A stretch of DNA of 20,000 nt from an uncultured virus (IMG/VR IMGVR_UViG_3300008261_000014) (Duplodnaviria > Heunggongvirae > Uroviricota > Caudoviricetes), in the IMG/VR virus record IMGVR_UViG_3300008261_000014, positions 56,454 to 76,453 of that record, one strand, 5' to 3'. The notes under the pieces were generated by a model. The model searched no databases. It was not told the DNA's origin and was given only the letters and a program-made list of their open reading frames with translations. Of the stretch, positions 2,004-20,000 are shown in pieces. Within the stretch, counting starts at the first letter, position 1; each line of letters begins with the position of its first letter. The position numbers were made by a program, and so were the translations under genes.

Positions 2004-2012
2004 GGGAATAAA

Positions 2013-5148: not shown

Positions 5149-5162
5149 GGTATACTACGACA

Positions 5163-6017: not shown

Positions 6018-6020
6018 GAA

Positions 6021-6469: not shown

Positions 6470-7504
6470 ATGAGAAAGTATAACAACGTTAAGGCACTAT
6501 GCTTTGATGATATTCTTTTGGTGCCACAACAGTCAGGTGTTAAAAGTAGATCAGACGTAGACCTATCTATGACTATTGGAGTTAGGCCAGAAGCACAGAT
6601 CACATTGTCTACTCCAATTATCTCTGCACCTATGGACACTGTTACTGAATGGGAGATGGCTTCTCATATGTCTAGGCTTGGTGGTCTAGGTATAATCCAT
6701 AGGTATATGGATGAGGTAGAGCAGGTAAGACAAGTTAAACTTGTTTCCGAAATGGGATTTGTAGTTGGTGCAGCAGTTGCTGCTACTGGATACTATGAGT
6801 CACACGCCTTAGAATTAGAAGAGGCTGGAGCAAAAGTAATATGTGTTGATACAGCAAATGGTCACAGTGATTATGCACTAGAAGCCGTAAAGAAATTGAG
6901 AGCAGTTTTAAATCCTGCTACACACATTATGGCTGGCAATGTTTCAACAGCAGAAGGATACAAGATGCTATTGCAGATGGGTGCAGACTCTGTTCGTGTT
7001 GGAATTGGTGGTGGTGCAGCCTGCACTACTAGGATTGTAACTGGGCACGGAAGGCCAACCCTACAGTCCATCTTAGATTGCTTTAATGATGAATCAGTAT
7101 CTAATCTGGGAATCATTGCAGATGGTGGAATTAGGAACTCAGGAGATATGGTTAAGTCTTTTGCAGCAGGGGCATCTGCAGTTATGCTAGGATCTGCTTT
7201 GGCAGGACACGACGAGGCTCCAGGAGACATTATTGATGGCTTTAAGTCTTTCCGTGGGATGGCTTCAAGTGAGGCTCAGGAGGCCTGGAGAGGCTATTCT
7301 GCAGGTTCTGAGGGTATATCTACTAAGGTACCATACAAGGGGGCAGTTGAAGATAGTCTAAATAAATTTAGATTAGGCCTAGGCTCAGGGTGTTCTTATT
7401 CTGGATCTCACAGCCTGTCAGATTTGCAAGAAGACTCCGAATATGATACAGTATCTATAGCAAGTTTAAACGAATCCAAACCACACGCAAGGGGATCAGC
7501 ATGA
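6470..7504 (+). CDS. guaB: IMP dehydrogenase / GMP reductase family protein lacking the CBS subdomain
   Basis: FDDILLVP, SAPMDTVTE, GIIHR, DTANGHS, catalytic loop GIGGGAACTTR, IADGGI, FRGMAS, EG; IMPDH versus GMPR activity not resolvable by eye. Confidence 0.9.
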   Translation: MRKYNNVKALCFDDILLVPQQSGVKSRSDVDLSMTIGVRPEAQITLSTPIISAPMDTVTEWEMASHMSRLGGLGIIHRYMDEVEQVRQVKLVSEMGFVVGAAVAATGYYESHALELEEAGAKVICVDTANGHSDYALEAVKKLRAVLNPATHIMAGNVSTAEGYKMLLQMGADSVRVGIGGGAACTTRIVTGHGRPTLQSILDCFNDESVSNLGIIADGGIRNSGDMVKSFAAGASAVMLGSALAGHDEAPGDIIDGFKSFRGMASSEAQEAWRGYSAGSEGISTKVPYKGAVEDSLNKFRLGLGSGCSYSGSHSLSDLQEDSEYDTVSIASLNESKPHARGSA

Positions 7505-8130
7505 CCTGTATAGTCTCAACCGTTAGTTCACAGTATGCAGTATTGGCATCTGATTCTGGTATTACTTGGGATAACATTAAAGCCACACCTACAAATAAAA
7601 TTGTTCAACAAGGCACTTGGCTTATTGGTGCTGCAGGAGCAGATAGAGTTTGCGATGTAGTACAGTTTGGAATTAAGTATCCAGTTGTACCCAAGACAGT
7701 AAACCTTGATGACTACAACGAGGCAATGAAATTTATGGTTACAAAGGTTGTACCATTAATCAGAGATGCAATGTCAGATGAGCAATCATTAAAAACAGAA
7801 AATGGAGTGGCTGGAATACCAGACGACTCATACTTTACTTTAGTAACACACGGAAAGTCTTTCACTGTCAGTGAGACACTTGGAGTTTCAGTCAACAGAG
7901 ATTATTCTGTAATTGGTTCTGGAACAGAGTTGGCAATGGGATATCTAGCACACGGCTGGAAAGATCCAGATTGGGTAAAGAAGCATGACCAGCATGCAGC
8001 ATGGGCAGTTGAGGCTGCAATTAAACACGACACCTATTGTGGAGCACCAGTAATGGCCTACAAGTCATTTCCTTCAGGGGAGGTTAAGATGTATCGTAAG
8101 GGTGTTGGGACTGGCACGGTGGAAAAGTAA
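7501..8130 (+). CDS. Ntn-hydrolase (proteasome beta / HslV-like) protein
   Basis: M-T-C-I-V N-terminal Thr, ASDS, K, IGSG-x-x-x-A-x-G, A-x-x-x-D-x-x-C-G. Confidence 0.85.
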   Translation: MTCIVSTVSSQYAVLASDSGITWDNIKATPTNKIVQQGTWLIGAAGADRVCDVVQFGIKYPVVPKTVNLDDYNEAMKFMVTKVVPLIRDAMSDEQSLKTENGVAGIPDDSYFTLVTHGKSFTVSETLGVSVNRDYSVIGSGTELAMGYLAHGWKDPDWVKKHDQHAAWAVEAAIKHDTYCGAPVMAYKSFPSGEVKMYRKGVGTGTVEK

Positions 8131-8324
8131 TGCCCGTATATGAATACAAATGCTCTGAAGATGATGCACACGCTATAATGTCAGTGCATAGATCAATTAA
8201 AGATGAAGATCCAGGATATACTTGTGTTGAATGTGAAGCAGATATGATTAGATCTTATTCATCATTTGCAATACAATTTAAAGGCTCAGGATTTTACAAA
8301 ACAGATTCAGCAAAAAACAAATAG
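8130..8324 (+). CDS. FmdB-family zinc-ribbon protein
   Basis: MPVYEYKC...C-x2-C...FKGSGFYKTD. Confidence 0.9.
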   Translation: MPVYEYKCSEDDAHAIMSVHRSIKDEDPGYTCVECEADMIRSYSSFAIQFKGSGFYKTDSAKNK

Positions 8325-8336
8325 AAAAGGTAGACA

Positions 8337-9074
8337 ATGTTTAAGAAGAAAAAGTTTAGGCCCTATCAGGACATTACTTTTGTTGCTAGGGATGAGATAA
8401 TCTTACAATCTTGTGAGGCCCCTAAGCCAGCAAGAACTTTAATTCCAGATTGGTATAAAAATATACCTTCTCATCACTCAAAAACAGCAGAGTGGGATGA
8501 TAGATTTGGCAGTGCTAACTCAACACTAAAACAGTGTATGCCGTTCTTTGATGCGTTTACTATGGGATATATTATGACAACCCCTTGTGATATTTATGTA
8601 GAGAGTTCTTTTAATGGAGCAAGTGTAAAGATTAGTTCACACCCATCTTTTAACATAGTTAATACTAGAGGTCCATCAAATAAAACATCTATGCCTATTC
8701 CAGATGAGTACTATGACTGTGAGTTTACTTGGCTTACACACTGGGAAGCAAAGACTCCACCTGGCTACAGTACTTTGTACACACACCCACTAAACAGAGA
8801 TGACCTTCCAATTCATACAGTTTCTGGCGTGATGGATACTGATCACTGGTATGCGACAGGGAACCACCCATTTTTTATTAAAAAGGGATTTGAGGGGGTT
8901 ATTCCAATGGGAACACCAATGATGCAAATCATTCCTTTTAAGCGTGAATCTTGGATGGCTACAGAGCCAAGGGCTATGGGAAAAGATGAATACGAACTAC
9001 TAAACATGAAGGTAAGAAGACATCTTTCCAGTGGCTATAAAAAAGAAATGTGGCAGAAAAAAGAATACATGTAA
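8337..9074 (+). CDS. Conserved phage protein, paralogue of 4447-5148
   Basis: PKPA-x4-PDWYK, TLKQCMPF, TPPGYS, GVMDTD, GTPMMQIIPFKR. Confidence 0.65.
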   Translation: MFKKKKFRPYQDITFVARDEIILQSCEAPKPARTLIPDWYKNIPSHHSKTAEWDDRFGSANSTLKQCMPFFDAFTMGYIMTTPCDIYVESSFNGASVKISSHPSFNIVNTRGPSNKTSMPIPDEYYDCEFTWLTHWEAKTPPGYSTLYTHPLNRDDLPIHTVSGVMDTDHWYATGNHPFFIKKGFEGVIPMGTPMMQIIPFKRESWMATEPRAMGKDEYELLNMKVRRHLSSGYKKEMWQKKEYM

Positions 9075-10213
9075 TGGATCGTAATTTAAAAACTATCTTT
9101 GTTTCGGTTCCTACAATGGAAGACTACGATTATGCTGCAACAATAAAACATTTATTTAAAAATGCAAAGTATCCAGAAAGGGTTTACGTTGGTAGCCCTA
9201 TATATCTTTCTGACTTAGATCAGTTAACAGACCCAGAATATAAAAAGTTTTGGGTTTTAGATTTTGATCCACCAGAGGGAAATTACAAATCAGGATTTTT
9301 TAAACACGCAGACTTCTTTGGTGTAGGAAGAGGTAGGCTAAACGCATTACAATATTACAACAACGAGGATTACTTCTTTCAAATTGATTCCCACATGAGA
9401 TTTAGAAAAGATTGGGATGTAGATATAATCAATGAGTTTGAAGACTGTAAGACATATTTTGGAGAGCGTGTCTTGCTAGGAAACTATGCTCCTGGATTTG
9501 ATGTTGAAACAGGAGAAGATGGCGATGAAGTCTTTACTACAAGGAATGAAAACAAATATGCTTTTTGGCTTTATGACGATAGAAGAAGCCCACACTTTCC
9601 AGTAGGATGGGATCATACAATATATCCAGGTGAACAAAGACACCATTCTCATGGCTGGATAGAAAACAGGTGGCTTCCAGCAATTAAAATTTGTGCACAC
9701 AATATGTTTACTGATGGGCCTATCTGGGTAAACAGTTATCGTACATGCTTAAATGAAGACTTAATATTTTGGGGAGAAGAACTATATCAATCAGCCCTTG
9801 CGTATATGAGGGGGTATGAGTTTTGTCATAGTTCAACCCCATATGTATATCATAGATACGCTGGAACTGTTACGTTTGTAGAAGAAAAAGACTTAGGAGA
9901 CTTGTCTTTTAGGACTGAAGATCCTTCTATTATCAATGATGCTGGTGGTAGAGATTACTTTACAGAGACCAAAAAATACCCTTATAAGCGTTGGTACTCA
10001 TATAAAGAAAGATTAGCAATGGAGTCAGAAAGAATAAACTCATTGATTACTGCAAGTAATGACGAATTTGGATACCTTCCAAGAACATTTAAAGGATATT
10101 TAAAGTATGCAGGCATAGATCTTGAACAAAGAAAGACAAAGAAGGCAAAGCACCTGCCAATAGTAAACCCTGTTTTTAAGAAGAAGGAGAACAAAGATGA
10201 AGCAAAGAATTAG
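9074..10213 (+). CDS. Skp1-hydroxyproline GlcNAc-transferase-like (Gnt1-type) glycosyltransferase
   Basis: TIFVSV, TI-x-x-LF-x-NAKYPERVYVG, G-x-G-x-G-R, QIDSHMRF-x-x-DWD, FWGEE, YH; start set at ATG 9074 overlapping the upstream TAA. Confidence 0.85.
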   Translation: MDRNLKTIFVSVPTMEDYDYAATIKHLFKNAKYPERVYVGSPIYLSDLDQLTDPEYKKFWVLDFDPPEGNYKSGFFKHADFFGVGRGRLNALQYYNNEDYFFQIDSHMRFRKDWDVDIINEFEDCKTYFGERVLLGNYAPGFDVETGEDGDEVFTTRNENKYAFWLYDDRRSPHFPVGWDHTIYPGEQRHHSHGWIENRWLPAIKICAHNMFTDGPIWVNSYRTCLNEDLIFWGEELYQSALAYMRGYEFCHSSTPYVYHRYAGTVTFVEEKDLGDLSFRTEDPSIINDAGGRDYFTETKKYPYKRWYSYKERLAMESERINSLITASNDEFGYLPRTFKGYLKYAGIDLEQRKTKKAKHLPIVNPVFKKKENKDEAKN

Positions 10214-12921: not shown

Positions 12922-13057
12922 TTATCCACATAATCGTAATACTTTTCCACAGTTCCCCCTATACTTATCCACACTTATATCCTATTTATCCACATTTTAT
13001 ACCTATTTATCCACATATTATTATAAGTTATCCACATATATATGCAAGTTATCCACA
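12922..13057 (+). repeat. Array of seven co-oriented DnaA boxes
   Basis: TTATCCACA at 12922, 12965, 12986, 13007, 13028, 13049 and TTTTCCACA at 12943, in AT-rich non-coding DNA. Confidence 0.9.
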
Positions 13058-13151
13058 TATTATCCCTATATTTCTATATAAAAATATATAAAAAAATACA
13101 CATAAACACTTGACATTTCAGTGATTATGTGTATATTATCGTAATGTTATA

Positions 13152-13328
13152 TTATAAATATCTTAGATATCCAGAGAGAGTATCATAGAATACTCTTGGG
13201 TGTGTATTACATGTATATATCTTATATTGAGGATCAAGGTAATCTTCTACCACCGCCGCCTGCTCGTAGCACCACGGACAAATTCCAGTGATATTTTTCG
13301 GCAGATCGTAATCTATCTTATTTGTCAT
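13152..13328 (-). CDS. Hypothetical protein (CxxC...CxxH)
   Basis: MTNKIDYDLPKNITGICPWC...CNTH; start reassigned to 13328. Confidence 0.5.
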   Translation of the reverse strand: MTNKIDYDLPKNITGICPWCYEQAAVVEDYLDPQYKIYTCNTHPRVFYDTLSGYLRYL

Positions 13329-13485
13329 TCTGAGGGCGGCTAACTGAATATGATCCTCTATTACTATATAGAGTATTACTAAAGGATACTTTGTTATTAG
13401 GATTACGTCCAGGATGTCTATGATTAAAGGCATCTATACTATATGGCTGTTTACCCTGAGATAAAGATTTCTTAACTCTCTTCAT
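13318..13485 (-). CDS. Small basic hypothetical protein
   Basis: AAGGA + ATG 13485 downstream of promoter; MKRVKKSLSQGKQ... Confidence 0.5.
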   Translation of the reverse strand: MKRVKKSLSQGKQPYSIDAFNHRHPGRNPNNKVSFSNTLYSNRGSYSVSRPQNDK

Positions 13486-13519
13486 ATCTTCCTTATAAGA
13501 CCAATATAGCAAAAACCCT

Positions 13520-13548
13520 AGTATAACATATACAATAGCGATTGTCAA
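13520..13548 (-). promoter_or_regulatory. Sigma70-type promoter
   Basis: TTGACA-17 nt-TATACT with TGn. Confidence 0.8.
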
Positions 13549-13644
13549 GAGTATAGGAGTATTAATGAGAAGCCTCCAAAATTCCAGTGATATTTTTCAT
13601 ATGATCGTAATGAGTTATTAAATAACTTCTCTGACCGCCCCCTC

Positions 13645-13965
13645 TTAGGCGTCATCCTCATCTTCAAAAATTGTTTCCATCAAATCATTTACTGATTCGA
13701 TTTTATCTACACCAAGTGCAGCACATAAAGATTTGTAAGTTGTATCGATTGTTTCCCAACCTGATTCAGTCAAACCTTCTTCTTTGATATCTTTTGTTTC
13801 GATACCAAGTGCGTATGGAATTCCTAGATTGTTTTCTAAGATCCAATCTTCCCAAGAGTGTGCTTCTACTTCATTGATGATTGCAAATGCAGATGCAATG
13901 ATTGCAGTCTTTCGCTTTGTAGCCATCCACTCTTTTTGTTTTGCTGTTACTTCTTCTGTTGCCAT
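13645..13965 (-). CDS. Hypothetical protein
   Basis: 106 aa, GAGGAG RBS. Confidence 0.75.
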   Translation of the reverse strand: MATEEVTAKQKEWMATKRKTAIIASAFAIINEVEAHSWEDWILENNLGIPYALGIETKDIKEEGLTESGWETIDTTYKSLCAALGVDKIESVNDLMETIFEDEDDA

Positions 13966-14174
13966 TATTCATACTCCTCTAAGTTGATTGCAGGTTGCTC
14001 GTAGGGACTTGGTTGGAAATTCTTTGTAGCATTATGCCACGCCAGCCAAGATGTTGCTTTATCTTCTATTGTATCACTAAAAAGGATAGCAGTTTGATGA
14101 GCCAGTTCTATCTCATTGACACGGGTGTCAGCGAAGATGTCTGCTAACTTTTGTGCTAGTCTTTTCTCCTTCAT
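13965..14174 (-). CDS. Hypothetical protein
   Basis: 69 aa, AGGAG RBS after promoter. Confidence 0.75.
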   Translation of the reverse strand: MKEKRLAQKLADIFADTRVNEIELAHQTAILFSDTIEDKATSWLAWHNATKNFQPSPYEQPAINLEEYE

Positions 14175-14191
14175 ATACTCTCCTTTTCTCC

Positions 14192-14220
14192 ATTATACCA
14201 AATGGGAGAGTGGCTGTCAA
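14192..14220 (-). promoter_or_regulatory. Consensus sigma70-type promoter
   Basis: TTGACA-17 nt-TATAAT with TGn. Confidence 0.9.
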
Positions 14221-14248
14221 TGTAACACAGCCACCCCCCACTGGTGGC

Positions 14249-14617
14249 CTAGACCCCTACCAAAAGGTCTGGCTCTTCCCCTATCGCATAAGCGTTAATA
14301 AATGCATCCCAGGACACAGATACATTGTCAGTTACAGTCTTGGTAATGAAATCAATGATGACTGTTTGCTCTCCTAGGTCGTAACCGTCTTGGTCAATTG
14401 CATAGATACCAAAACCAGTCTCGTCCATAATAGAATCCTTGATCAAATAACTAATCATCATACGTGTCCCATATGAAGAATCTTGCCAGCGTGGCTTAGA
14501 ATGCTGCAGGGCTGCTGCAATATCCGTCTGCCATTCAGTCTGGCCCCAATGGCTGTATAAGACAACCAATGGACCCTTCTCTGAGTCTTTAAATACAAAG
14601 TTAATACGTGCTCCCAT
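14249..14617 (-). CDS. Conserved phage hypothetical protein
   Basis: MGARINFVF...LYSHWG...RW-x-D-x-x-Y-x-x-R; start reassigned to 14617 (TAATG coupling). Confidence 0.75.
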   Translation of the reverse strand: MGARINFVFKDSEKGPLVVLYSHWGQTEWQTDIAAALQHSKPRWQDSSYGTRMMISYLIKDSIMDETGFGIYAIDQDGYDLGEQTVIIDFITKTVTDNVSVSWDAFINAYAIGEEPDLLVGV

Positions 14618-14799
14618 TATTCTTCTTCTTCCTCGTCGATAGTAGTAATTTCTAACGGATACCAATCAATGGCATATATTTCAACATCCTCATCACGTTC
14701 GATTCTTTCAATCTCTGCGATGGCTTCATCTTCAGTGTCTGCCTCAATCTCAAAATCATAATTGACTTCTCGTGTGGCAGTTATTTTATACATTGGCAT
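14617..14799 (-). CDS. Small acidic protein (EA-x-x-E-x-EA motif)
   Basis: 60 aa, GGAG upstream. Confidence 0.7.
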   Translation of the reverse strand: MPMYKITATREVNYDFEIEADTEDEAIAEIERIERDEDVEIYAIDWYPLEITTIDEEEEE

Positions 14800-15235
14800 T
14801 GGCAGGCTCCAATCCTACTAGGGTTAGTTCTTCAATGGTAGCACATTGTGTGCATTTCTCCAAATCGTGTTCATCAAATGCATCTCTGATTAGATTATCA
14901 GGGTCCTCAAACTCAGCACTACAGTTCTCACAGTAGAACCAATTGTGGCTAACTCTGATTTGGATATCTGTATCAGGTGGGCACGGCACTTCAGTTATAA
15001 AGTATCCTATCCTATTAATGAAATGCCAACCATTCCATACATAGGAACCACCGTCGTCTCCATCCCCATACATCCAGATATGATTCTCAGGCTGTTGTTT
15101 GACGAACTCTACTTCATCACCATAGGTCTCAAACATTGCTCCATCAAAGGAGGCATTTGAATCTAGATGATTAGTAATAGGCTTGTAAGTGTCACACCAC
15201 TCATCGAATTCCATTTCGATAAACTTACTTGACAC
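14786..15235 (-). CDS. Hypothetical protein with C-terminal CxxC...CxxC
   Basis: FETYG, GWHFINRIGY; start probably GTG 15235. Confidence 0.75.
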   Translation of the reverse strand: MSSKFIEMEFDEWCDTYKPITNHLDSNASFDGAMFETYGDEVEFVKQQPENHIWMYGDGDDGGSYVWNGWHFINRIGYFITEVPCPPDTDIQIRVSHNWFYCENCSAEFEDPDNLIRDAFDEHDLEKCTQCATIEELTLVGLEPANANV

Positions 15236-15380
15236 TTTCTGCACCTGCCTTATAGATTTCAACAAGACGCTTTAAGACAGCCTTGGTGGCCTTATCTTCA
15301 CTTGACATTGCTGCCTCAAAGTAAATGATTTGGCTTGCTTGGTCCTCTAGTTCTTCCATTATGTGCTTAGGGATTTTCAT
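15225..15380 (-). CDS. Small hypothetical protein (51 aa)
   Basis: AAGGAG + MKIPKHIMEELEDQASQIIYFE... Confidence 0.7.
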   Translation of the reverse strand: MKIPKHIMEELEDQASQIIYFEAAMSSEDKATKAVLKRLVEIYKAGAESVK

Positions 15381-15390
15381 ATTACTCCTT

Positions 15391-15630
15391 TTATTTGGTA
15401 GGGACGCCTAGTATATCAGCAGCCACTGACAATAAATGGGCAGTAGCAATAATCTGACCGTTGGTAGAGATATCCTCTATCTCTAGAGTTCTGTAGTCAT
15501 CATCCTCATAGTTAGAATAAGAATCCATCTGCTTTTCAAGGTAGGCAGAGTCTTGCTCTAGACTAAGTAGATGTAACTTCATATACTCTACAAGTTGGGT
15601 GGTGCGATCAATGTATGCTGATTCCATCAT
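15391..15630 (-). CDS. Hypothetical protein
   Basis: 79 aa, coupled to the upstream stop. Confidence 0.7.
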   Translation of the reverse strand: MMESAYIDRTTQLVEYMKLHLLSLEQDSAYLEKQMDSYSNYEDDDYRTLEIEDISTNGQIIATAHLLSVAADILGVPTK

Positions 15631-15788
15631 TCACCCCAATACTTGACAATAGTATTCATAGTAGTATGAAGGGAACAATCACAGTCTCCACCGTTCATAT
15701 TTTCCATAAACTCAAAGTGTGAGTAGTTATCCTCGTAGATTTCATTTACGAGTTCATTAATTGTGTAGGGCTTATAGGTAGTGCTCAT
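15627..15788 (-). CDS. Small hypothetical protein (53 aa)
   Basis: MSTTYKPYTINELVNEIYEDNYSH...CDCSLH; fills gap with ATGA overlaps at both ends. Confidence 0.65.
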   Translation of the reverse strand: MSTTYKPYTINELVNEIYEDNYSHFEFMENMNGGDCDCSLHTTMNTIVKYWGE

Positions 15789-16027
15789 TCTTCTACCCAA
15801 CACTGTAACTCAGGCACAAACTTGTTAGTGATAATACCCCATTGGGCATCGTCCCAACTAACTTCATCGTCCATTACCTTAGCAATCTCATCTATGAAGG
15901 TTTGCATAACGGCTTCTGCGTGGTGTGCATTCTTAGCCTTGATATTTGTAATAGAGATAGCAAGGTCGCAAGAATAGTAGTCTGCATACATTTCAGGGTT
16001 TTCTAGGTAGTCTGCATTATTTTCCAT
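15785..16027 (-). CDS. Hypothetical protein
   Basis: 80 aa acidic, GAGGA RBS. Confidence 0.7.
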   Translation of the reverse strand: MENNADYLENPEMYADYYSCDLAISITNIKAKNAHHAEAVMQTFIDEIAKVMDDEVSWDDAQWGIITNKFVPELQCWVEE

Positions 16028-16292
16028 TTATAATGTCCTCTCTCTCAAAGATTAAACTAGTTAATGTGGAATAGATTTGGACATATGCGTCCATACGCCC
16101 TGTGAGTTCTAGTCTTTGAATTGTATCTTCATACTCTTCATCTGACCCAATCTCTTCGCTATTGGCTAGCAAGGGAATTAGTTCTGTTTCTGTCTCATAC
16201 ATAGCATTTTTAAGATAGCCGTGCAATAAGTCGTGGATAGGTATTGACAGGTCTGCTAGGGCTTTATCGTTTACCCCATATACTTTATTCAT
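16017..16292 (-). CDS. Hypothetical protein
   Basis: 91 aa ORF in operon. Confidence 0.7.
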   Translation of the reverse strand: MNKVYGVNDKALADLSIPIHDLLHGYLKNAMYETETELIPLLANSEEIGSDEEYEDTIQRLELTGRMDAYVQIYSTLTSLIFEREDIINGK

Positions 16293-16308
16293 AGGTAGTT
16301 CCGTTCTG

Positions 16309-16494
16309 TTAGAGGATAGTATATTTTACACTATGGGGACCACTCTTGTCAAGTAGGTCAGGGCTGATAAATCTATCAGTTACAAATTCTTTAATGACTT
16401 CGAACGTGAGTTCGTAATCACCTACGTAATCCTTTATTTCAGGGAGTAATTTGTCTACGTCGTAATCAACTGTATAGGTCATTCTCAGTTTCAT
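16309..16494 (-). CDS. Hypothetical protein
   Basis: 61 aa, GAGGA RBS. Confidence 0.65.
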   Translation of the reverse strand: MKLRMTYTVDYDVDKLLPEIKDYVGDYELTFEVIKEFVTDRFISPDLLDKSGPHSVKYTIL

Positions 16495-16640
16495 TATTCA
16501 TCCTCTCCTTCTAGCCAAGCGTGTAAGTGGTGTTGCTCAATTATAGCCCATACAGGGGCAGTCTGTCTATTCTTATACATAACTTGAAAGTCGTTAATTA
16601 ATGGCATTTGGATCTCTTCATCCCATAGTTCTTCTTTAGC
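16494..16640 (-). pseudogene. Apparent 3' remnant of a phage gene
   Basis: AKEELWDEEIQMP...APVWAIIEQHHLHAWLEGEDE*, preceded by an in-frame TAA; stop coupled to the next ATG. Confidence 0.5.
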
Positions 16641-16648
16641 TTAATCAA

Positions 16649-16664
16649 TGTGATCAATATCACA
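16649..16664. promoter_or_regulatory. CRP/GlxR-type box
   Basis: TGTGA-TCAATA-TCACA. Confidence 0.7.
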
Positions 16665-16677
16665 TCGGGCGGTAAAG

Positions 16678-16749
16678 TCCCCTTAGAAGGATTCGAACCT
16701 CCGACCAAACGGGTAGAAACCGTTGACTCTTCCTCTGAGTTATAAGGGG
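16678..16749 (-). tRNA. tRNA-Arg (anticodon UCU), CCA not encoded
   Basis: CCCCTTA/TAAGGGG acceptor, ACTC/GAGT D-stem, AACGG-TTTCTAC-CCGTT anticodon arm, GGAGG-TTCGAAT-CCTTC T arm. Confidence 0.93.
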
Positions 16750-16753
16750 CAAA

Positions 16754-16781
16754 GAGCAGTTTTGAATCGTGCTCAGGATTT
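16754..16781 (-). ncRNA. Small H-type pseudoknot motif, copy A
   Basis: AATC-CTGAGCAC-GATT-CAAAAC-TGCTC. Confidence 0.65.
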
Positions 16782-16796
16782 ATTAGTAGCCCCCTA

Positions 16797-17213
16797 CTAA
16801 ATATCTATTCTATCTATTGAGGCTGATATCCAACTTACTTTGTCAGTGTCGTATGAAATTGCTTCAAAGTCAATGTCATTTACTACATCTTCTGCTTCTT
16901 CATTGTGAGCAAGTTGCAAAGTCATATTGTAAGTAACAGTTACTTCAACTTCAACTTCCTTAGACAATTCGAATCCACAAATCTCAGCAATTTCCTCTGC
17001 CTGTGATTCTGTGATACCATTGTCTTCTAATTCCTTCATAGTCCATTCGTGCATCTTATCACGCATAGTCTGTAGGTTTGCAGCAGTTGCATAATCACGT
17101 TGTGTTACACGCTGAATGTGCTCATCTTTGCTTTTGATTATTTCTTGAAACTGAACAATCTGTCCTTCAAGAAACTCTCGTGTCATATAGTGCTGGTCTG
17201 GCGTCTGGTCCAT
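16797..17213 (-). CDS. Acidic hypothetical protein
   Basis: 138 aa, GAGG RBS after promoter. Confidence 0.75.
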   Translation of the reverse strand: MDQTPDQHYMTREFLEGQIVQFQEIIKSKDEHIQRVTQRDYATAANLQTMRDKMHEWTMKELEDNGITESQAEEIAEICGFELSKEVEVEVTVTYNMTLQLAHNEEAEDVVNDIDFEAISYDTDKVSWISASIDRIDI

Positions 17214-17244
17214 AGGGGGCCTCTTTCTGTTAGGTTATGGTGCA

Positions 17245-17273
17245 ATTATAGCAAATTCCTGCGACATTTTCAA
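17245..17273 (-). promoter_or_regulatory. Sigma70-type promoter
   Basis: TTGAAA-17 nt-TATAAT with TGn. Confidence 0.85.
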
Positions 17274-17293
17274 ATCCTACTTAATAGTAACCG

Positions 17294-17309
17294 TGTGATG
17301 TTGGTCACA
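17294..17309. promoter_or_regulatory. CRP/GlxR-type box
   Basis: TGTGA-TGTTGG-TCACA. Confidence 0.75.
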
Positions 17310-17322
17310 TTTTACCGCCCCC

Positions 17323-17354
17323 AAATATTTATGCACGATCACGCATAAATATTT
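17323..17354 (-). terminator. 12-bp inverted repeat, possible terminator
   Basis: AAATATTTATGC-N8-GCATAAATATTT downstream of the DUF932 gene. Confidence 0.5.
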
Positions 17355-17358
17355 AGAG

Positions 17359-17387
17359 TGAGCAGTTTCAATTCTTGCTCAGGAATT
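17359..17387 (-). ncRNA. Small H-type pseudoknot motif, copy B
   Basis: AATTC-CTGAGCAA-GAATT-GAAAC-TGCTCA. Confidence 0.7.
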
Positions 17388-17392
17388 TATTT

Positions 17393-18394
17393 TTATTTAC
17401 TCGCTGCAAATGCTTTTACAGTTTGGTAAATTTTATTTTTCTCTGCGTTGATAACAGGGTCAAAACCAGATGCAGATGCAAATGTGTTTTCGCTGTTGCC
17501 ACCACGAGATGTGCGATACCAATCTAAACGCTCAGTGAGTGCATTGAGTCCTGCCCACGCTGTGCCTTGAATGTTTGCATTAGTAGGTGATGCAAGAATT
17601 TCTTGCAATGAAACCATTTTGTTTTCCCATTTCTTGAAAGAGCCTTTTGCATCTTTTTCAGGCTTAGGGTAAATGGTGTTTACGATTTTGATAAATTCTG
17701 CTTCGGTCATTGACTTTTGATACAATGCCTGTGCTTCCTTTTCAAATGTGTCCATATAGGCAAATGACATTCCAAGAGCCTCACGAGCAGCAGCAACTTT
17801 TCCGTCAGCAGATTGTGTATGACGAATTTTGAATGATTGCTTTACACTACGCAATGCAAGGTTTAGTGTATTTTGGCAGACAACACGAACAGGTGTGATG
17901 CTTGCTTGAATTGACACAGAACCATCGTGTGATGTGTGCAATAGCAAATAAGTTTTTGTCTGGTCGTTTGCCCCTTGTGCATCAAGAGTGATTGTCTTAT
18001 CCAATGCAAGAGCACCAAATACAACTGTTCCCTTTTTGATTGAGCCAGCAGTTTCCCACACGCCTCCACCATCAAGAATTGAATCACCGAATGAAAATAA
18101 ATCTTCATTCTGAACTACATTGTATCTATCTCCAACAATTCCCAAAACATCATTTTGGTTATCTTCAAATGGATTGTTGCGAACAACCATAAAATTGTTT
18201 TTGACAGATGTGTAAGTGTCTGGTAGAATTACATCTTCAAGACGCACATTCCAATTTGACAAATGTGCAAGGTCTAACATTTCTGATGTTGTAACCTCAT
18301 CTTGAAACACTGTTCCAAGATTGTGCCAAGCAGGTTCACGCAATGATGCAAATGCAACTTCGCCGTTTGAACCTTCTTCTAGTAAATGAGCCAT
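17393..18394 (-). CDS. DUF932 family phage/plasmid protein (TIGR03299-like)
   Basis: MAH, PAWH-x-LG, LG-x-VG-x-x-Y-x-x-x-QN, ETAG, SHDGS, TPVRVVCQNTL, RHT, GTAW-x-x-x-NA-x-x-E. Confidence 0.92.
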   Translation of the reverse strand: MAHLLEEGSNGEVAFASLREPAWHNLGTVFQDEVTTSEMLDLAHLSNWNVRLEDVILPDTYTSVKNNFMVVRNNPFEDNQNDVLGIVGDRYNVVQNEDLFSFGDSILDGGGVWETAGSIKKGTVVFGALALDKTITLDAQGANDQTKTYLLLHTSHDGSVSIQASITPVRVVCQNTLNLALRSVKQSFKIRHTQSADGKVAAAREALGMSFAYMDTFEKEAQALYQKSMTEAEFIKIVNTIYPKPEKDAKGSFKKWENKMVSLQEILASPTNANIQGTAWAGLNALTERLDWYRTSRGGNSENTFASASGFDPVINAEKNKIYQTVKAFAASK

Positions 18395-18426
18395 ATATTT
18401 ATTGCCTTTCTGTTGTTGTTACCCCA

Positions 18427-18455
18427 AGTATAACAGAACGGGCTGACATTATCAA
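18427..18455 (-). promoter_or_regulatory. Sigma70-type promoter
   Basis: TTGATA-17 nt-TATACT with TGn. Confidence 0.85.
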
Positions 18456-18485
18456 ATCCAATCCTTGAAATGTCCGATTTATTCC

Positions 18486-18501
18486 TGTGAGAAAAATCAC
18501 A
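18486..18501. promoter_or_regulatory. CRP/GlxR-type box
   Basis: TGTGA-GAAAAA-TCACA. Confidence 0.75.
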
Positions 18502-18513
18502 TCCTCGTAAACC

Positions 18514-18533
18514 TGTGGATAACCTGTGGATAG
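18514..18533 (-). promoter_or_regulatory. Pair of DnaA boxes
   Basis: TGTGGATAA (perfect) and TGTGGATAG, starts 11 bp apart. Confidence 0.7.
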
Positions 18534-18549
18534 GGGCGGCTGGCCCGAT

Positions 18550-18702
18550 CTAGCAGGTGCCCATTAAAAAATCTTCATCCGTGTATCCATATTTAACTAG
18601 AGTGTGATCACTATAGCAAGAATGACATAACGGAATATCATCTTCAATGTAACCTTCAAGATACATAGGCTGAGGACAGTTTAAACATTTTTGATTTATC
18701 AT
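18550..18702 (-). CDS. Small CxxC...CxxC protein
   Basis: MINQKCLNC...CHSC; start reassigned to 18702 (TAATG coupling). Confidence 0.6.
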   Translation of the reverse strand: MINQKCLNCPQPMYLEGYIEDDIPLCHSCYSDHTLVKYGYTDEDFLMGTC

Positions 18703-18773
18703 TAGAATAACTTTTCTGCTAGCCAAAAACAAATCATAAATAAAATTAAAGTGCCAATTGTTAGTTGATACAC
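18702..18773 (-). CDS. Tiny hydrophobic peptide (23 aa)
   Basis: AGGAG + GTG; YQLTIGTLILFMICFWLAEKLF. Confidence 0.45.
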   Translation of the reverse strand: MYQLTIGTLILFMICFWLAEKLF

Positions 18774-18780
18774 GTTGCTC

Positions 18781-18993
18781 CTATTTCTTAGTTGCACTAA
18801 ATAAAATATCATTGCGTTGGAATACGCATTGCCCACACGAGACACACGCACTACCATTCGTAGATATTAGTGGAATTTTCTTATTGTTTTCAGGACAACG
18901 GACGGCTGTCTTGTTGACCAATTCTAGCATATCTGCCTTGCCTATGTCAAATGTCTTAGCAAGGTAGGCTAACTTGCGTAGTAGTTTAGTCAT
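18781..18993 (-). CDS. Cys-rich protein resembling the C-terminus of phage Gp88-like proteins; possibly internally deleted
   Basis: CPE-x4-IPL-x6-AC-x2-C-x2-C tail directly after MTKLLR. Confidence 0.55.
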   Translation of the reverse strand: MTKLLRKLAYLAKTFDIGKADMLELVNKTAVRCPENNKKIPLISTNGSACVSCGQCVFQRNDILFSATKK

Positions 18994-19118
18994 TAGTTAT
19001 ACCCCTTAGTGCATTCAGTGCAGATAGAGTAGTTAGTGCAATAGCAAGAGTTTATATCATTCATAACCTCATAGCCTTGCTCATAGAGTTTATCATAGAA
19101 CTCATCGTTGTATTCCAT
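18993..19118 (-). CDS. Small Cys-rich protein (41 aa)
   Basis: MEYNDEFYDKLYE...CYCTNYSICTEC; GAAGG upstream, TAATG coupling. Confidence 0.6.
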   Translation of the reverse strand: MEYNDEFYDKLYEQGYEVMNDINSCYCTNYSICTECTKGYN

Positions 19119-19149
19119 AGGGGCCTTCTTTCTAACTTGGTAGGTTTAG

Positions 19150-19178
19150 ATTATATCAGGGGGGACTGACATTTATGC
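19150..19178 (-). promoter_or_regulatory. Extended -10 promoter with poor -35
   Basis: GCATAA-ATGTCAGTCCCCCCTGA-TATAAT. Confidence 0.65.
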
Positions 19179-19291
19179 TTATTCTTTCTAGAATAAACTT
19201 TCTTAGACTTTATAGGGGATGAGGCATTGCACCTACGCAACTCCATAAGCCTACGTAAGGCTTCTTTATCCTTTTTAGTCTTGTGATTCAT
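19151..19291 (-). CDS. Small basic ArfA-like peptide (46 aa), probably leaderless
   Basis: MNHKTKKDKEALRRLMELRRCNASSPIKSKKVYSRKNKHKCQSPLI; ATG 7 nt after TATAAT. Confidence 0.6.
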   Translation of the reverse strand: MNHKTKKDKEALRRLMELRRCNASSPIKSKKVYSRKNKHKCQSPLI

Positions 19292-19298
19292 ACTTGCA

Positions 19299-19327
19299 AT
19301 TATAGCAAAATAACTCAGCCGTGTCAA
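19299..19327 (-). promoter_or_regulatory. Consensus sigma70-type promoter
   Basis: TTGACA-17 nt-TATAAT with TGn. Confidence 0.9.
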
Positions 19328-19337
19328 CTCAAATTCC

Positions 19338-19353
19338 TGTGATAAATCTCACA
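19338..19353. promoter_or_regulatory. CRP/GlxR-type box
   Basis: TGTGA-TAAATC-TCACA. Confidence 0.75.
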
Positions 19354-19413
19354 TCCTCGTAATTACGACACGCCCGACTGCGTGGGGGCGGCAAATTGTC
19401 GACAATTGCAAAG

Positions 19414-19443
19414 TGAGCCTTTTTGATTCTTGCTCAGGAATTT
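19414..19443 (-). ncRNA. Small H-type pseudoknot motif, copy C
   Basis: ATTC-CTGAGCAA-GAAT-CAAAAAG-GCTCA. Confidence 0.7.
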
Positions 19444-19563
19444 ACACCTCTTGCAGTTGGTGTGAACTGTGCTCTATAGTATTTTTATAATCGCCCTAAT
19501 CAGCCTGGCGAAATATTTGGGAGCAGGCACCTAGGTTAGTTTGAAACCCACTCCCAAATAATT

Positions 19564-19734
19564 TTACTTAGATGTTTTTACCATTGCAAATCGTTTTGAT
19601 CCGTTTGCTAATTGTAATCCAACACGAGTAACTGTTTTGCTTACAGGTGCAAAAGAATAAATTCTGCCTGTAACGCCTGTCTTACTTGTTGTAAATAAAT
19701 CTCCAACTTGGTAAGTGTATCCTGATAGTGTCAT
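19564..19734 (-). CDS. Small hypothetical protein (SH3/KOW-like)
   Basis: AAGGA + MTLSGYTYQVGDLFTTSKTGVTGRI...; start reassigned to 19734. Confidence 0.7.
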   Translation of the reverse strand: MTLSGYTYQVGDLFTTSKTGVTGRIYSFAPVSKTVTRVGLQLANGSKRFAMVKTSK

Positions 19735-19763
19735 TTGTTTTTCCTTTGGTAGTAGTTTGGGGT

Positions 19764-19792
19764 TGAGCCTTTTCACAACTTGCTCAGGTTGT
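19764..19792 (-). ncRNA. Small H-type pseudoknot motif, copy D
   Basis: ACAAC-CTGAGCAA-GTTGT-GAAAAG-GCTCA. Confidence 0.7.
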
Positions 19793-19856
19793 AGAGTTCT
19801 TACTTACGACATTGGACTAGAACACTCTAGAAACTGTCCCTGTTTCGATTATCTAA

Positions 19857-20000
19857 TTACAGATAACGAGCAATAGCATTGTAAGTGCTTGTGCTTACAA
19901 CTTCCTCATCTGTCATTTTGAGAATACGGATTGCGTTTGTAAGTTCCTCTTTCATCTCATTGTATGAGTGAGTATGGATTACCTCGAAATCCTTTTCAGG
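19857..20000 (-). CDS. Hypothetical protein, 5'-partial
   Basis: Open from the window edge: ...EMKEELTNAIRILKMTDEEVVSTSTYNAIARYL*. Confidence 0.7.
   Translation of the reverse strand, partial: PEKDFEVIHTHSYNEMKEELTNAIRILKMTDEEVVSTSTYNAIARYL

What the first reader, a model, noticed from the sequence alone, without database searches (positions are those of the whole stretch)
16754..19792. Four dispersed copies of a ~29-nt H-type pseudoknot with a covarying stem
Seen: on the minus (transcribed) strand, four intergenic copies (16754-16781, 17359-17387, 19414-19443, 19764-19792) read S1-CUGAGCA(A/C)-S1'-A-rich linker-(U/G)GCUC. Stem 1 changes sequence but keeps pairing (AAUC/GAUU, AAUUC/GAAUU, AUUC/GAAU, ACAAC/GUUGU). 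The loop is conserved and its GAGC pairs with the 3' GCUC. Two copies start about 5-15 nt after a stop codon, one ends 4 nt before the tRNA 5' end, and one sits just upstream of an RBS. Inference: a functional RNA element rather than a DNA repeat, such as an exonuclease block, processing signal, or protein/ligand-binding aptamer on early transcripts. I cannot assign it to a named family.
Basis: partly seen in the sequence, partly recalled or inferred. Interest (0 to 1): 0.85.

Follow-up and report, generated by a model that had tools for sequence, protein, structure and literature searches.

The report
Phage mRNA pseudoknot with tRNA-like tail
The four repeats are real copies of an uncatalogued, roughly 30-base knotted RNA fold that many phages place just after genes and just before their tRNAs, probably to mark and protect the ends of their messages.

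Summary
The four minus-strand copies are exact (4 matches, 0 in 200 shuffles). They belong to a large phage RNA family.

In 80 related IMG/VR loci the motif occurs 311 times on the gene-sense strand and never on the other. Both helices covary. Stem 1 is paired in 95% of cells. Stem 2 is paired in 99.5%, with two-sided changes at all four pairs (GAGC/GCUC, AAGC/GCUU, GGCC/GGCC and others). It is therefore an H-type pseudoknot with fixed loop letters: L1 C-U, one A, and L3 AAAC.

No Rfam 15 family matches. The family also occurs in diverse IMG/VR phages and once each in three cultured phages (Mycobacterium phage Labelle, Paracoccus phage ParKuw1, Erwinia phage Berlingot). Matches in bacterial genomes are at chance level.

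Position rules:
- It usually starts 5-19 nt after a stop codon.
- It ends 4-5 nt before the 5' end of several different phage tRNAs.
- It is followed by an A-C/U-rich, G-poor tail.

The function is inferred, not shown. The best reading is an end-defining, exonuclease-blocking mark on phage transcripts that imitates a tRNA acceptor end and may engage RNase P. Rivals are a loop-1 RNase P substrate, a protein operator, a ribozyme and a terminator.

The parts
19764..19792 (-). Pseudoknot copy A: S1a 19792-19788 (ACAAC), L1 19787-19786 (CU), S2a 19785-19782 (GAGC), A 19781, junction nt 19780, S1b 19779-19775 (GUUGU), L3 19774-19769 (GAAAAG), S2b 19768-19765 (GCUC), +1 A 19764
   Evidence: Sequence read. 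Pattern match. CM R1 scores it 33.5 bits. It lies 64 nt after the stop at 19857-19859 and 30 nt before the ATG at 19734. An exact RNA-library contig (X15 record 5, 19748-19828) spans it.
19414..19441 (-). Pseudoknot copy B: S1a 19441-19438 (AUUC), L1 19437-19436, S2a 19435-19432, A 19431, junction 19430, S1b 19429-19426 (GAAU), L3 19425-19419 (CAAAAAG), S2b 19418-19415 (GCUC), +1 A 19414
   Evidence: CM R1 37.0 bits. About 90 nt upstream of the 12/12 sigma-70-like promoter at 19327-19299.
17359..17387 (-). Pseudoknot copy C: S1a 17387-17383 (AAUUC), L1 17382-17381, S2a 17380-17377, A 17376, junction 17375, S1b 17374-17370 (GAAUU), L3 17369-17364 (GAAACU; U17364 can pair with A17376), S2b 17363-17360 (GCUC), +1 A 17359
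   Evidence: CM R1 41.3 bits. It starts 5 nt after the TAA (17395-17393) of the DUF932 gene. It is followed by a 12-bp AU-rich hairpin at 17354-17323 and the promoter at 17273-17245.
16753..16780 (-). Pseudoknot copy D: S1a 16780-16777 (AAUC), L1 16776-16775, S2a 16774-16771, A 16770, junction 16769 (C), S1b 16768-16765 (GAUU), L3 16764-16758 (CAAAACU), S2b 16757-16754 (GCUC), then the 4-nt tail UUUG 16753-16750
   Evidence: CM R1 38.1 bits. It starts 16 nt after the TAG at 16799-16797. The tRNA starts 4 nt after S2b.
16677..16749 (-). tRNA-Arg(TCT) whose 5' end lies 4 nt downstream of copy D. No CCA is encoded.
   Evidence: ARAGORN. Rfam tRNA 61.3 bits. 3' flank read.
17393..18394 (-). DUF932 gene (333 aa) whose stop precedes copy C. 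It was used to collect relatives.
   Evidence: Pfam PF06067 E 6.6e-55. PHROG 1221. 248 relatives in IMG/VR.
16797..17213 (-). 138-aa ORF whose stop codon, inside the hairpin UAGUAG-GGGG-CUACUA (16799-16784), precedes copy D
   Evidence: The same stop-codon hairpin precedes the pseudoknot in relatives.

Best explanation
The element is a cis-acting RNA of about 28-36 nt that folds into a compact H-type pseudoknot.

Layout, 5' to 3':
- stem 1, 3-6 bp, closed by C-G;
- loop 1, C-U;
- stem 2, 4 covarying bp flanked by an optional U-A and an A-U pair;
- one unpaired junction base;
- loop 3, ending AAAC;
- a tail starting with A, then C/U-rich and G-poor.

The structure is shown by covariation. The function below is inferred.

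Phages place the element at the 3' end of cistrons. There it most likely serves as transcript punctuation. It would be a mechanically stable knot that stops 3'-to-5' exonucleases and defines RNA ends.

Its stem 2 plus A-C-C tail imitates a tRNA acceptor end. The host tRNA-processing enzymes would then create and respect that end. RNase P does this where a tRNA follows 4-5 nt downstream. Elsewhere, an endonuclease cut followed by exonuclease trimming would do it.
For: Structure:
- With stem 2 fixed by the pattern and stem 1 left free, stem-1 pairs 7-18 and 6-19 are paired in 101 of 102 and 102 of 102 unique copies. They use 4-5 pair types.
- With stem 2 left free, 199 of 211 unique copies pair 4 of 4. 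The permutation mean is 131.7 and the maximum 142.
- On 138 rows, stem 2 is 99.5% paired, with two-sided changes at all 4 pairs. The covariation score is 0.556, against 0.194 for shuffles and at most 0.085 for slid partners.
- The closing pair also flips to G-C in 23 copies.
- G34 is kept in 133 of 138 rows while its partner alternates C/U. This fits a base triple with the loop-1 C.

RNA rather than DNA:
- 311 sense versus 0 antisense copies in 882 kb.
- In the own genome there are 4 copies on the minus strand among minus-strand genes and 1 on the plus strand among plus-strand genes.
- The plus-strand copies in G001 and G003 follow plus-strand ORFs.
- Lake metatranscriptome contigs cover the region and one spans copy A. 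This is weak evidence.

Position:
- 147 of 228 unique copies begin 5-19 nt after the stop of an ORF of at least 50 aa. The mode is 5-7 nt and none is closer than 3 nt.
- The distance to the next ORF is broad.
- tRNAs Arg, Gln, Asp, Leu, Glu and Tyr start 4-5 nt after stem 2 in several lineages. Among 25 unique tRNA-adjacent cases the gap is 4 nt in 15.

Tail:
- +1 is A in 64%, +2 is C in 62% and +3 is C in 59% of copies. G is 1-10% at +1 to +7.
- +1 is A in 82% of the IMG/VR-wide set.

Breadth and specificity:
- 126 of 126 IMG/VR pattern matches have stem 1 although the pattern did not ask for it.
- Only 21 of 120 chance-level matches in bacterial genomes have it.
- It is present in phages with their own RNA polymerase (Autographiviridae, ParKuw1) and in phages of Actinobacteria and Proteobacteria.

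Feasibility:
- RNase P cleaves small H-type pseudoknots that carry a 3' RCCA (PMC12710915, passages read).
- The T4 gene 32 leader pseudoknot is likewise followed by ACCA.
Against: - No RNA ends were mapped. Only contigs were available, so neither a 3' end at the knot nor any cleavage is shown.
- The A-C-C tail is only about 60% conserved in this family. In the wider set it weakens to A-Y-Y (+2 C 42%, +3 C 32%).
- The 4-nt tails before tRNAs are mostly GCAA, GCAU or ACAU, not NCCA.
- 23 of the 25 unique tRNA-adjacent cases in the DUF932 loci are one syntenic tRNA-Asp slot. Independent cases are therefore few.
- Many copies are followed by another hairpin, which makes a 3' block look redundant.
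- The cultured phages carry a single copy each. A general punctuation role does not predict that.
- The coaxial stack is 8-11 bp, shorter than the 12 bp of a tRNA acceptor/T arm.
Confidence: 0.45

Rival explanations
1. The knot is a true RNase P substrate and is cut inside loop 1, between the invariant U and the first base of stem 2. This would separate the upstream cistron from what follows. The downstream RNA would begin with a stem-2 hairpin, and the upstream mRNA would be exposed to decay.
For: The determinants match those of pre-tRNAs and of the artificial pseudoknot substrate:
- an invariant U at the position equivalent to -1;
- G-C (110 of 138) or A-U (25 of 138) as the first stem-2 pair;
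- A at '73' and C at '74/75' in about 60% of copies.
PMC12710915 (passages) shows loop-1 cleavage of an H-type pseudoknot that depends on a 3' RCC motif. The phage tRNAs themselves do not encode CCA, so the ACC tail is not just a local composition habit.
Against: - Cleavage was not observed, and one RNA-library contig spans copy A uncut.
- CC is weak outside this phage family.
- U10 can pair with A at +1 in 70-82% of copies, which would bury the site.
- There is no obvious benefit in removing protection from the upstream mRNA.
Confidence: 0.15
2. The knot is a binding site (operator) for a protein. It could work like the T4 gene 32 leader pseudoknot, which nucleates binding of a phage protein onto the unstructured RNA that follows and so controls translation. 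Alternatively it could bind a host factor such as ribosomal protein S1.
For: - The unpaired letters (C-U, A, AAAC) stay invariant while the helices vary.
- A G-poor, unstructured tail follows.
- Some copies lie 15-45 nt before an SD and ATG. Copy A is one, and its arrangement before the MTLSGYTYQ ORF is kept in relatives.
- The T4 gene 32 pseudoknot has the same architecture and an ACCA tail.
Against: - Position is tied to the upstream stop, not to the downstream start.
- Copies precede tRNAs and promoters.
- The family spans very different phages with no shared neighbouring gene.
- The fixed letters can also be explained as structural triples.
Confidence: 0.12
3. The knot is a very small self-cleaving ribozyme that cuts polycistronic phage RNA at gene borders and next to tRNAs.
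For: - There are strictly conserved unpaired nucleotides in a tiny pseudoknot.
- It occurs in intergenic slots and next to tRNAs. Small ribozymes (theta/HDV-like) are known to sit next to phage tRNAs (PMC10879173, abstract and outline read).
- It works in hosts of many phyla and so needs no special host factor.
Against: - No known ribozyme family matches.
- 30 nt with two short helices is smaller than any known natural self-cleaver (recalled).
- The gap to the tRNA varies (4, 5, 7, 8, 9 and 23 nt), so RNase P is still needed.
- An uncut contig spans copy A.
Confidence: 0.07
4. The knot is a transcription termination or pause signal, with stem 2 acting as the terminator hairpin.
For: - A U-run of at least 4 follows within 12 nt in 31 of 219 and 28 of 109 unique copies, against 3.9% of random 12-mers.
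- One copy with a U-run sits at a convergent gene junction in G001.
- Copies B, C and D lie upstream of the next promoter, and no canonical terminator is found there.
Against: - Most copies (74-86%) have no U-run.
- tRNAs that must be co-transcribed start 4-5 nt downstream.
- It occurs in a T7-like phage with its own polymerase.
Confidence: 0.1
5. It is a DNA-level signal, a hairpin or knot in single-stranded DNA used in replication or packaging, and its strand bias follows replication rather than transcription.
For: The only strand switch seen in the own genome also lies across the DnaA-box array at 12922-13057. Strand bias alone therefore does not separate replication from transcription.
Against: - It is strictly intergenic, lies 5-19 nt after stop codons, and lies 4-5 nt before tRNA 5' ends.
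- G-U pairs (47 U-G at one stem-2 pair) are tolerated in RNA.
- It occurs as a single copy in unrelated phages, between genes and in the sense orientation.
Confidence: 0.03

Closest known systems
T2/T4 gene 32 mRNA leader pseudoknot
   Same: It is a phage mRNA H-type pseudoknot with a one- or two-base loop 1 and a short A-rich loop 3. It is followed by ACCA and an unstructured, G-poor stretch (T4 sequence read). PMC12710915 notes the ACCA and a claimed RNase P sensitivity.
   Different: - No sequence or CM similarity: R1 finds nothing in T4.
- T4 has one copy, tied to the start of the SSB gene. Here there are 3-6 copies per genome, tied to upstream stop codons and tRNA 5' ends.
- Stem 2 is 7 bp in T4 and 4-6 bp here.
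- The fixed loop letters differ.
Pseudoknotted acceptor arm of TYMV-type tRNA-like structures, and the artificial pseudoknot+RCCA substrates of RNase P (PMC12710915)
   Same: The 3' strand of stem 2 is followed by a discriminator-like A and C-C. Loop 1 leads into the 5' end of that helix. A U sits at the position equivalent to -1.
   Different: - It is only about 30 nt, with no T-, D- or anticodon-like domains.
- The tail is internal to the transcript as encoded.
- CC is conserved in only about 60% of copies, and less in other lineages.
- Neither cleavage nor aminoacylation was tested.
MALAT1/MEN-beta 3' end module (triple helix followed by a tRNA-like RNA cut by RNase P), recalled and not tested
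   Same: In both, an A-rich compact triplex-type structure sits immediately upstream of a tRNA or tRNA-like RNA. RNase P cutting would leave a protected 3' end.
   Different: MALAT1 is a eukaryotic nuclear lncRNA with a U-A-U triple helix of different architecture. Here only a minority of copies (38 of 299) precede a tRNA.
Luteovirus-type compact frameshift pseudoknots (BWYV, ScYLV), recalled
   Same: The size and layout are the same: a C in loop 1, a single extruded junction base, and an A-rich loop 3 ending in A or C that lies in the stem-1 minor groove.
   Different: There is no slippery site or overlapping frame. The knots follow stop codons and are followed by tRNAs, promoters or hairpins.
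T7 intercistronic RNase III sites and REP-type 3' stabiliser hairpins, recalled
   Same: Both are structured elements between cistrons that define or protect mRNA 3' ends.
   Different: Those are simple or bulged hairpins cut or bound by known enzymes. This is a pseudoknot with fixed loop letters.

Membership tests
Any Rfam 15 family | Covariance-model score at or above the family's gathering score | tested here: not met
   cmscan of 13000-20000 at E<=10 finds only the tRNA. 56-nt windows around copies C and B give only CRISPR-DR18/DR7 at 14.9 and 13.3 bits, against cut-offs of 50 and 37, or nothing.
T4 gene 32 leader pseudoknot | H-type pseudoknot followed by ACCA and an unstructured leader | tested here: met
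   The architecture is shown by covariation. The tail is A-C-C in about 60% of copies and G-poor. The T4 sequence was read for comparison.
T4 gene 32 leader pseudoknot | Sits a fixed distance upstream of the SSB gene start and is related in sequence | tested here: not met
   Position is tied to upstream stops. R1 finds no match in T4.
TYMV-type tRNA-like structure | Pseudoknot forms an acceptor helix ending in NCCA at the RNA's 3' terminus | tested here: inconclusive
   The A-C-C tail is partly conserved. A 4-nt tail would be left by RNase P before tRNAs. The real 3' ends are unknown because only contigs were available.
TYMV-type tRNA-like structure | Full L-shaped mimic with T-, D- and anticodon-like domains | tested here: not met
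   Conservation ends at the roughly 30-nt knot and its flanks are not conserved.
RNase P pseudoknot substrates | Cleavage in loop 1 that depends on a 3' RCC(A) | not testable with these tools
   Only the sequence determinants could be compared.
Programmed -1 frameshift or readthrough pseudoknot | Slippery site or leaky stop 5-9 nt upstream, and an ORF continuing through the knot | tested here: not met
   Spacing to the stop is often 5-9 nt. What follows, however, is a tRNA, hairpin or promoter. In copy C a second in-frame stop follows at once.
preQ1-I type riboswitch | Rfam RF00522 match and a place in the 5' UTR of queuosine-related genes | tested here: not met
   There is no Rfam match. The element is anchored after stop codons and before tRNAs.
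Intrinsic terminator | Stable hairpin immediately followed by a U-run | tested here: not met
   A U-run of at least 4 occurs in 31 of 219 and 28 of 109 copies only. None of the four window copies was called by the terminator scan.
Known small self-cleaving ribozymes (hammerhead, twister, pistol, hatchet, HDV-like) | Match to the family model | tested here: not met
   None was found in 11 related loci, 143 kb.
CRISPR repeat or solitary repeat unit | Repeat-like hairpin ending in AUUGAAAC/G that matches a repeat family | tested here: not met
   Only copy C gives weak sub-threshold hits, E 0.93 and 1.9. The stem-2 partner after AAAC is foreign to CRISPR repeats.

The most novel reading that the evidence does not exclude
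Phages of many lineages carry a 30-nt imitation of the tRNA acceptor end that recruits the host's tRNA-maturation enzymes to cut and cap their messenger RNAs. Those enzymes would be RNase P above all, then the 3' trimming exonucleases and possibly the CCA-adding enzyme. This would be the first natural family of pseudoknot substrates or ligands of RNase P acting in vivo. It would also be a bacterial-virus counterpart of the MALAT1 triple-helix/mascRNA arrangement.
Probability: 0.25. Interest if true: 0.88.

Novelty: new variant of a known kind. Interest (0 to 1): 0.78.

Why it matters
If the reading holds, this is an uncatalogued, very small and widespread phage RNA fold whose two helices are both proven by natural compensatory changes.

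- It has simple positional rules and occurs in cultured, tractable phages (M. smegmatis phage Labelle, Paracoccus phage ParKuw1, Erwinia phage Berlingot).
- The authors of PMC12710915 call it an open question whether RNase P targets pseudoknots in mRNAs in vivo. This family makes that question directly testable.
- It would add a new way in which phages shape the stability and processing of their messages.
- A 30-nt portable knot that blocks exonucleases or directs cutting would also be a useful insulator part for synthetic operons.

Tried and rejected
- Rfam at relaxed thresholds gave nothing usable. The weak CRISPR-repeat resemblance of copy C was rejected because it is sub-threshold and is not shared by the other copies.
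- The strand asymmetry of CCTGAGC in the whole genome (11 versus 0) was rejected as part of the motif. The other 7 sites are inside coding DNA and lack the rest of the motif.
- megablast of the region against cultured phages found no match.
- Streptomyces phage Jay2Jay is the closest cultured relative by DUF932 (59% identity). It has no copy in 14.6 kb or in the whole record.
- The scan of bacterial genomes gave 120 matches at the chance rate. Only 21 have stem-1 pairing. Its value is as a control, and only a few look real (for example the Lacticaseibacillus contig L230, identical to IMG/VR locus L159).
- RNA runs were kept only as contigs at low depth, so no starts, ends or cuts can be read. 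Contig stops near 19792-19799 come partly from relatives with a different sequence downstream and were not used.
- Nested folding finds only the stem-2 hairpin (-4.8 to -6.2 kcal/mol, z -0.03 to -2.3). The tool cannot score pseudoknots.
- The supplements of PMC10690425 (8,495 candidate viral RNAs) could not be searched in full, because the files that could not be searched are too large. The motif may be among them. The 6 files that were searched hold no occurrence.
- Literal motif strings find no relevant paper. Three further topic searches and one search found no description of this element.
- No shared neighbouring protein family was found among Labelle, ParKuw1 and the window.
- No Rfam ribozyme occupies equivalent slots in 11 related loci.
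- The geometry-only scan was mostly noise from conserved coding DNA. It yielded only the G-C closing-pair variant.

Full report
**1. Observation**

The window is the last 20 kb of a 76,453-nt IMG/VR virus record, 69% complete by CheckV. On its minus strand the pattern CTGAGCAMG-N8-14-GCTC occurs four times. It occurs in none of 200 dinucleotide-preserving shuffles.

Reading the sequence, each copy has this layout:
- a 4-5 bp stem 1 (ACAAC/GUUGU, AUUC/GAAU, AAUUC/GAAUU, AAUC/GAUU) closed by C-G;
- an 8-nt loop, C-U-GAGC-A-N;
- an A-rich linker;
- GCUC.

The stated contexts also hold:
- Copy C starts 5 nt after the stop of the DUF932 gene.
- Copy D starts 16 nt after a stop and ends 4 nt before tRNA-Arg(TCT).
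- Copy A ends 30 nt before an ATG.

A covariance model built later finds a fifth copy in the same genome outside the window. It lies at G000:C1:40243-40276 on the plus strand, 30 nt after the stop of an endolysin-like ORF and 20 nt before an HNH endonuclease gene.

**2. Is it a structure?**

The 333-aa DUF932 protein has 248 relatives in IMG/VR. The best 80 loci (882 kb) were fetched and turned so that the gene is on the plus strand. Three tests were run, each leaving one helix free of the selection.

(a) Pattern with stem 2 fixed and stem 1 free.
- There are 102 unique copies.
- The two pairs next to the closing pair are paired in 101 of 102 and 102 of 102 copies. The pair types are UA 54, AU 44, GC 2 and CG 1 at one pair, and AU 40, GC 24, UA 19, CG 16 and GU 3 at the other.
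- The fourth pair is paired in 81 of 102 and the fifth in 38 of 102.

(b) Pattern with the fixed loop letters and two stem-1 pairs, and stem 2 free.
- There are 311 copies on the plus strand and 0 on the minus strand.
- Of 211 unique copies, 199 pair 4 of 4 in stem 2. The permutation mean is 131.7 and the maximum 142 in 1000 permutations.
- Of the 12 misses, 7 are another hairpin, 2 are artefacts of the expression, and 3 are a shifted, mismatched or chance case.

(c) Alignment A2.
- It holds 138 of the 148 selected rows. Ten were dropped as just described.
- Stem 2 is 99.5% paired, and each of its four pairs shows changes on both sides. The types include GC 110 / AU 25; AU 107 / GC 30; GC 123 / CG 12 / AU 2; and CG 86 / UG 47 / UA 4.
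- Whole-structure covariation is 0.556, against 0.194 in shuffles (0 of 500 reach it) and at most 0.085 with slid partners.

The stem-2 variants seen are GAGC/GCUC, GAGU/GCUC, GAGU/ACUC, AAGC/GCUU, GGCC/GGCC, GGGC/GCCC, AGGC/GCCU, GGAC/GUCC, GACC/GGUC and UAGC/GCUA, plus GAAC/GUUC. The closing pair also flips to G-C in 23 copies.

The two helices interleave, so the fold is an H-type pseudoknot. The letters that stay fixed are:
- the loop-1 C-U;
- the A after stem 2, which can pair with the U before the 3' strand in 127 of 138 rows;
- loop 3 ending AAAC (or AAAAG in about 11% of copies);
- G34, kept in 133 of 138 rows while its partner alternates C/U. This is what a base triple with the loop-1 C would require (inference).

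Nested folding cannot see the knot and gives only a weak stem-2 hairpin.

**3. Specificity and spread**

- 78 of the 80 loci carry at least one copy, mostly 3-6 per locus of at most 13 kb.
- Five complete relatives (108-116 kb) have 3-6 model hits each. These are mostly clustered in the DUF932 region. A few lie elsewhere on the other strand, and there they follow ORFs of that strand.
All 126 matches have stem-1 pairing.
- The same pattern in 596 Gb of bacterial genomes gives 120 matches, roughly my estimate of chance. Only 21 of the 120 have stem-1 pairing. That is a clean negative control.
- One copy each is present in cultured phages of three families:
  - Mycobacterium phage Labelle: 45 bits, 9 nt after the stop of gp85.
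  - Paracoccus phage ParKuw1, an Autographiviridae: 32 bits, 24 nt before the ATG of a P-loop kinase-like gene.
  - Erwinia phage Berlingot, Chaseviridae: 29 bits, inside a 1.5-kb stretch without annotated genes.
- T4 and Streptomyces phage Jay2Jay have none.
- No Rfam 15 family matches.
- Searches of the paper library for the literal motif and for the topic found no description. The large alignment supplements of PMC10690425 could not be searched.

**4. Position rules**

- 147 of 228 unique copies begin 5-19 nt after the stop of an ORF of at least 50 aa. With ORFs of at least 60 aa, the spacing from the stop to the first paired base has its mode at 5-7 nt and is never under 3.
- The distance to the next ORF start is broad. 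12 of 231 copies lie inside an ORF of at least 50 aa.
- In the 80 loci, 38 of the 42 plus-strand tRNAs have a knot ending 4-9 nt upstream. These are largely one syntenic tRNA-Asp slot: 23 of 25 unique cases, with gaps of 4 nt in 15, 7 nt in 6, 5 nt in 2, and 8 and 9 nt once each.
- Independent cases are tRNA-Arg (this window), tRNA-Gln, and in other lineages tRNA-Leu (5 nt), tRNA-Glu (4), tRNA-Tyr (5) and tRNA-Thr (23).
- The gap-7 tails begin ACCA. The gap-4 tails are mostly GCAA, GCAU or ACAU.
- Downstream of stem 2 in the non-tRNA copies, +1 is A in 64%, +2 is C in 62% and +3 is C in 59%. G is 1-10% at +1 to +7. In the IMG/VR-wide set, +1 is A in 82%, then C/U, and again almost no G.
- A U-run of at least 4 follows in 14% and 26% of copies, against 3.9% of random 12-mers.
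- In the window, copies B, C and D lie upstream of the next sigma-70-like promoter. The simple scan calls no canonical terminator there.

**5. Expression**

Four lake or freshwater metatranscriptome runs from three studies hold contigs matching parts of 16794-20000. One exact contig spans copy A. The runs are kept as contigs, so they show neither ends nor strand. This is weak support for transcription and says nothing about cutting.

**6. What it most likely does**

Shown:
- It is a conserved RNA pseudoknot.
- It is always in the sense orientation.
- It is anchored to the 3' end of cistrons.
- It often lies immediately before tRNAs.

Inferred: a compact, triplex-stabilised knot placed as close to the stop codon as a terminating ribosome allows is best explained as a barrier and end-mark for the upstream RNA.

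Where a tRNA follows, RNase P would leave the knot with a 4-5-nt single-stranded tail, the length of a tRNA's NCCA end. Elsewhere the A-C-C (A-Y-Y), G-free tail resembles the discriminator-CCA region. That is where tRNA precursors are cut and trimming exonucleases stop (established knowledge, recalled; the abstract of PMC2190699 in the listing states that RNase E cuts 1-3 nt after encoded CCA).

The same features are the determinants of RNase P substrates: U at '-1', G-C as the first pair, and A-C-C. PMC12710915 (passages read) shows that RNase P cuts small H-type pseudoknots in loop 1 only if an RCC motif follows. The authors state that in vivo targeting of mRNA pseudoknots is an open question and point to the T4 gene 32 pseudoknot followed by ACCA. 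I confirmed the ACCA on the T4 sequence.

Two things remain open: whether the phage knots are cut in loop 1 or only bound and capped, and whether a protein reads the fixed letters.

The main arguments against my reading are:
- the weak CC outside this family;
- the non-CCA tails before tRNAs;
- the redundancy with downstream hairpins;
- the single copy in cultured phages.

**7. Rivals**

The rivals are, with my odds:
- a loop-1 RNase P substrate (0.15);
- a protein operator of the gene 32 type (0.12);
- a terminator or pause element (0.10);
- a minimal ribozyme (0.07);
- a DNA-level signal (0.03).

The evidence is listed under each rival. A riboswitch is rejected on position and on the lack of any Rfam match.

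**8. Earlier notes of this scan**

Two earlier notes describe other phage pseudoknots ending in CCA or ACCA, read in the same way. They concern other sequences (one search found no look-alike) and are not independent evidence.

**9. Verdict**

It is a new, widespread phage RNA family with both helices proven by covariation. The kind of fold is known. The family and its positional rules appear undescribed. The function is unproven.

Noticed in passing
window 12922-13057 (+): An array of seven DnaA-box nonamers, six exact TTATCCACA and one with one mismatch, spaced 21-22 nt apart. It lies exactly where the plus-strand and minus-strand gene blocks converge. It may be a replication origin or a DnaA-titrating locus of the phage.
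   Followed up: partly
window 18514-18533 (-): Two more adjacent DnaA-box-like nonamers (TTATCCACA and CTATCCACA) upstream of the DUF932 promoter. Similar tandem boxes are seen at the same place in relatives.
   Followed up: no
window 16649-16664, 17294-17309, 18486-18501, 19338-19353: Four perfect TGTGA-N6-TCACA palindromes (CRP-type consensus, recalled), against 0.03 expected by chance. Each lies upstream of a sigma-70-like promoter of the minus-strand genes. The one checked by hand is centred about 60-65 nt upstream of the likely start.
   Followed up: partly
window 17265-17259 and 18447-18441 (-), and relatives: A conserved ATGTCAG/ATGTCGC box lies just downstream of the -35 position, about 11-13 nt before the -10 hexamer. 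It is present even where no -35 hexamer is recognisable in relatives. It is reminiscent of an activator box of middle promoters (seen by eye).
   Followed up: no
window 16784-16799 (-): The hairpin UAGUAG-GGGG-CUACUA contains the stop codon and a second in-frame stop of the 138-aa ORF, directly before pseudoknot D. It is conserved with the same sequence in many relatives.
   Followed up: no
relatives, e.g. L006:5735-5790, L024:4150-4185, L074:5775-5825: Hairpins whose stems covary while the loop keeps UAUCCUUUCU, complementary to the AAGAAAGGA-type ribosome-binding sites of these phages. They sit directly upstream of some pseudoknots and may be a second RNA motif.
   Followed up: no
window 17323-17354 (-): A 12-bp AU-rich perfect hairpin (AAAUAUUUAUGC / GCAUAAAUAUUU) with a loop containing GATC. 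It lies immediately after pseudoknot C and is followed by GGGGG rather than a U-run.
   Followed up: no
G000:C1:40243-40276 (+), outside the window: The fifth pseudoknot copy of the same genome, with a GAGU/GCUC stem 2, lies between an endolysin-like gene and an HNH endonuclease gene.
   Followed up: yes
L335:1910-3430 (Erwinia phage Berlingot OQ818695, 4124-5644): A 1.5-kb stretch without annotated genes holds the pseudoknot and several tRNA-like 3' halves (T-arm-like GGTTCGATTCC followed by an acceptor strand and CCA or CACC). ARAGORN calls none of them.
   Followed up: no
window 1392-10213 (+): A cluster of auxiliary genes: two 2OG-Fe(II) oxygenases, two GlcNAc-type glycosyltransferases, a GMP reductase/IMPDH-family enzyme, and two paralogues of PHROG 7084.
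   Followed up: no
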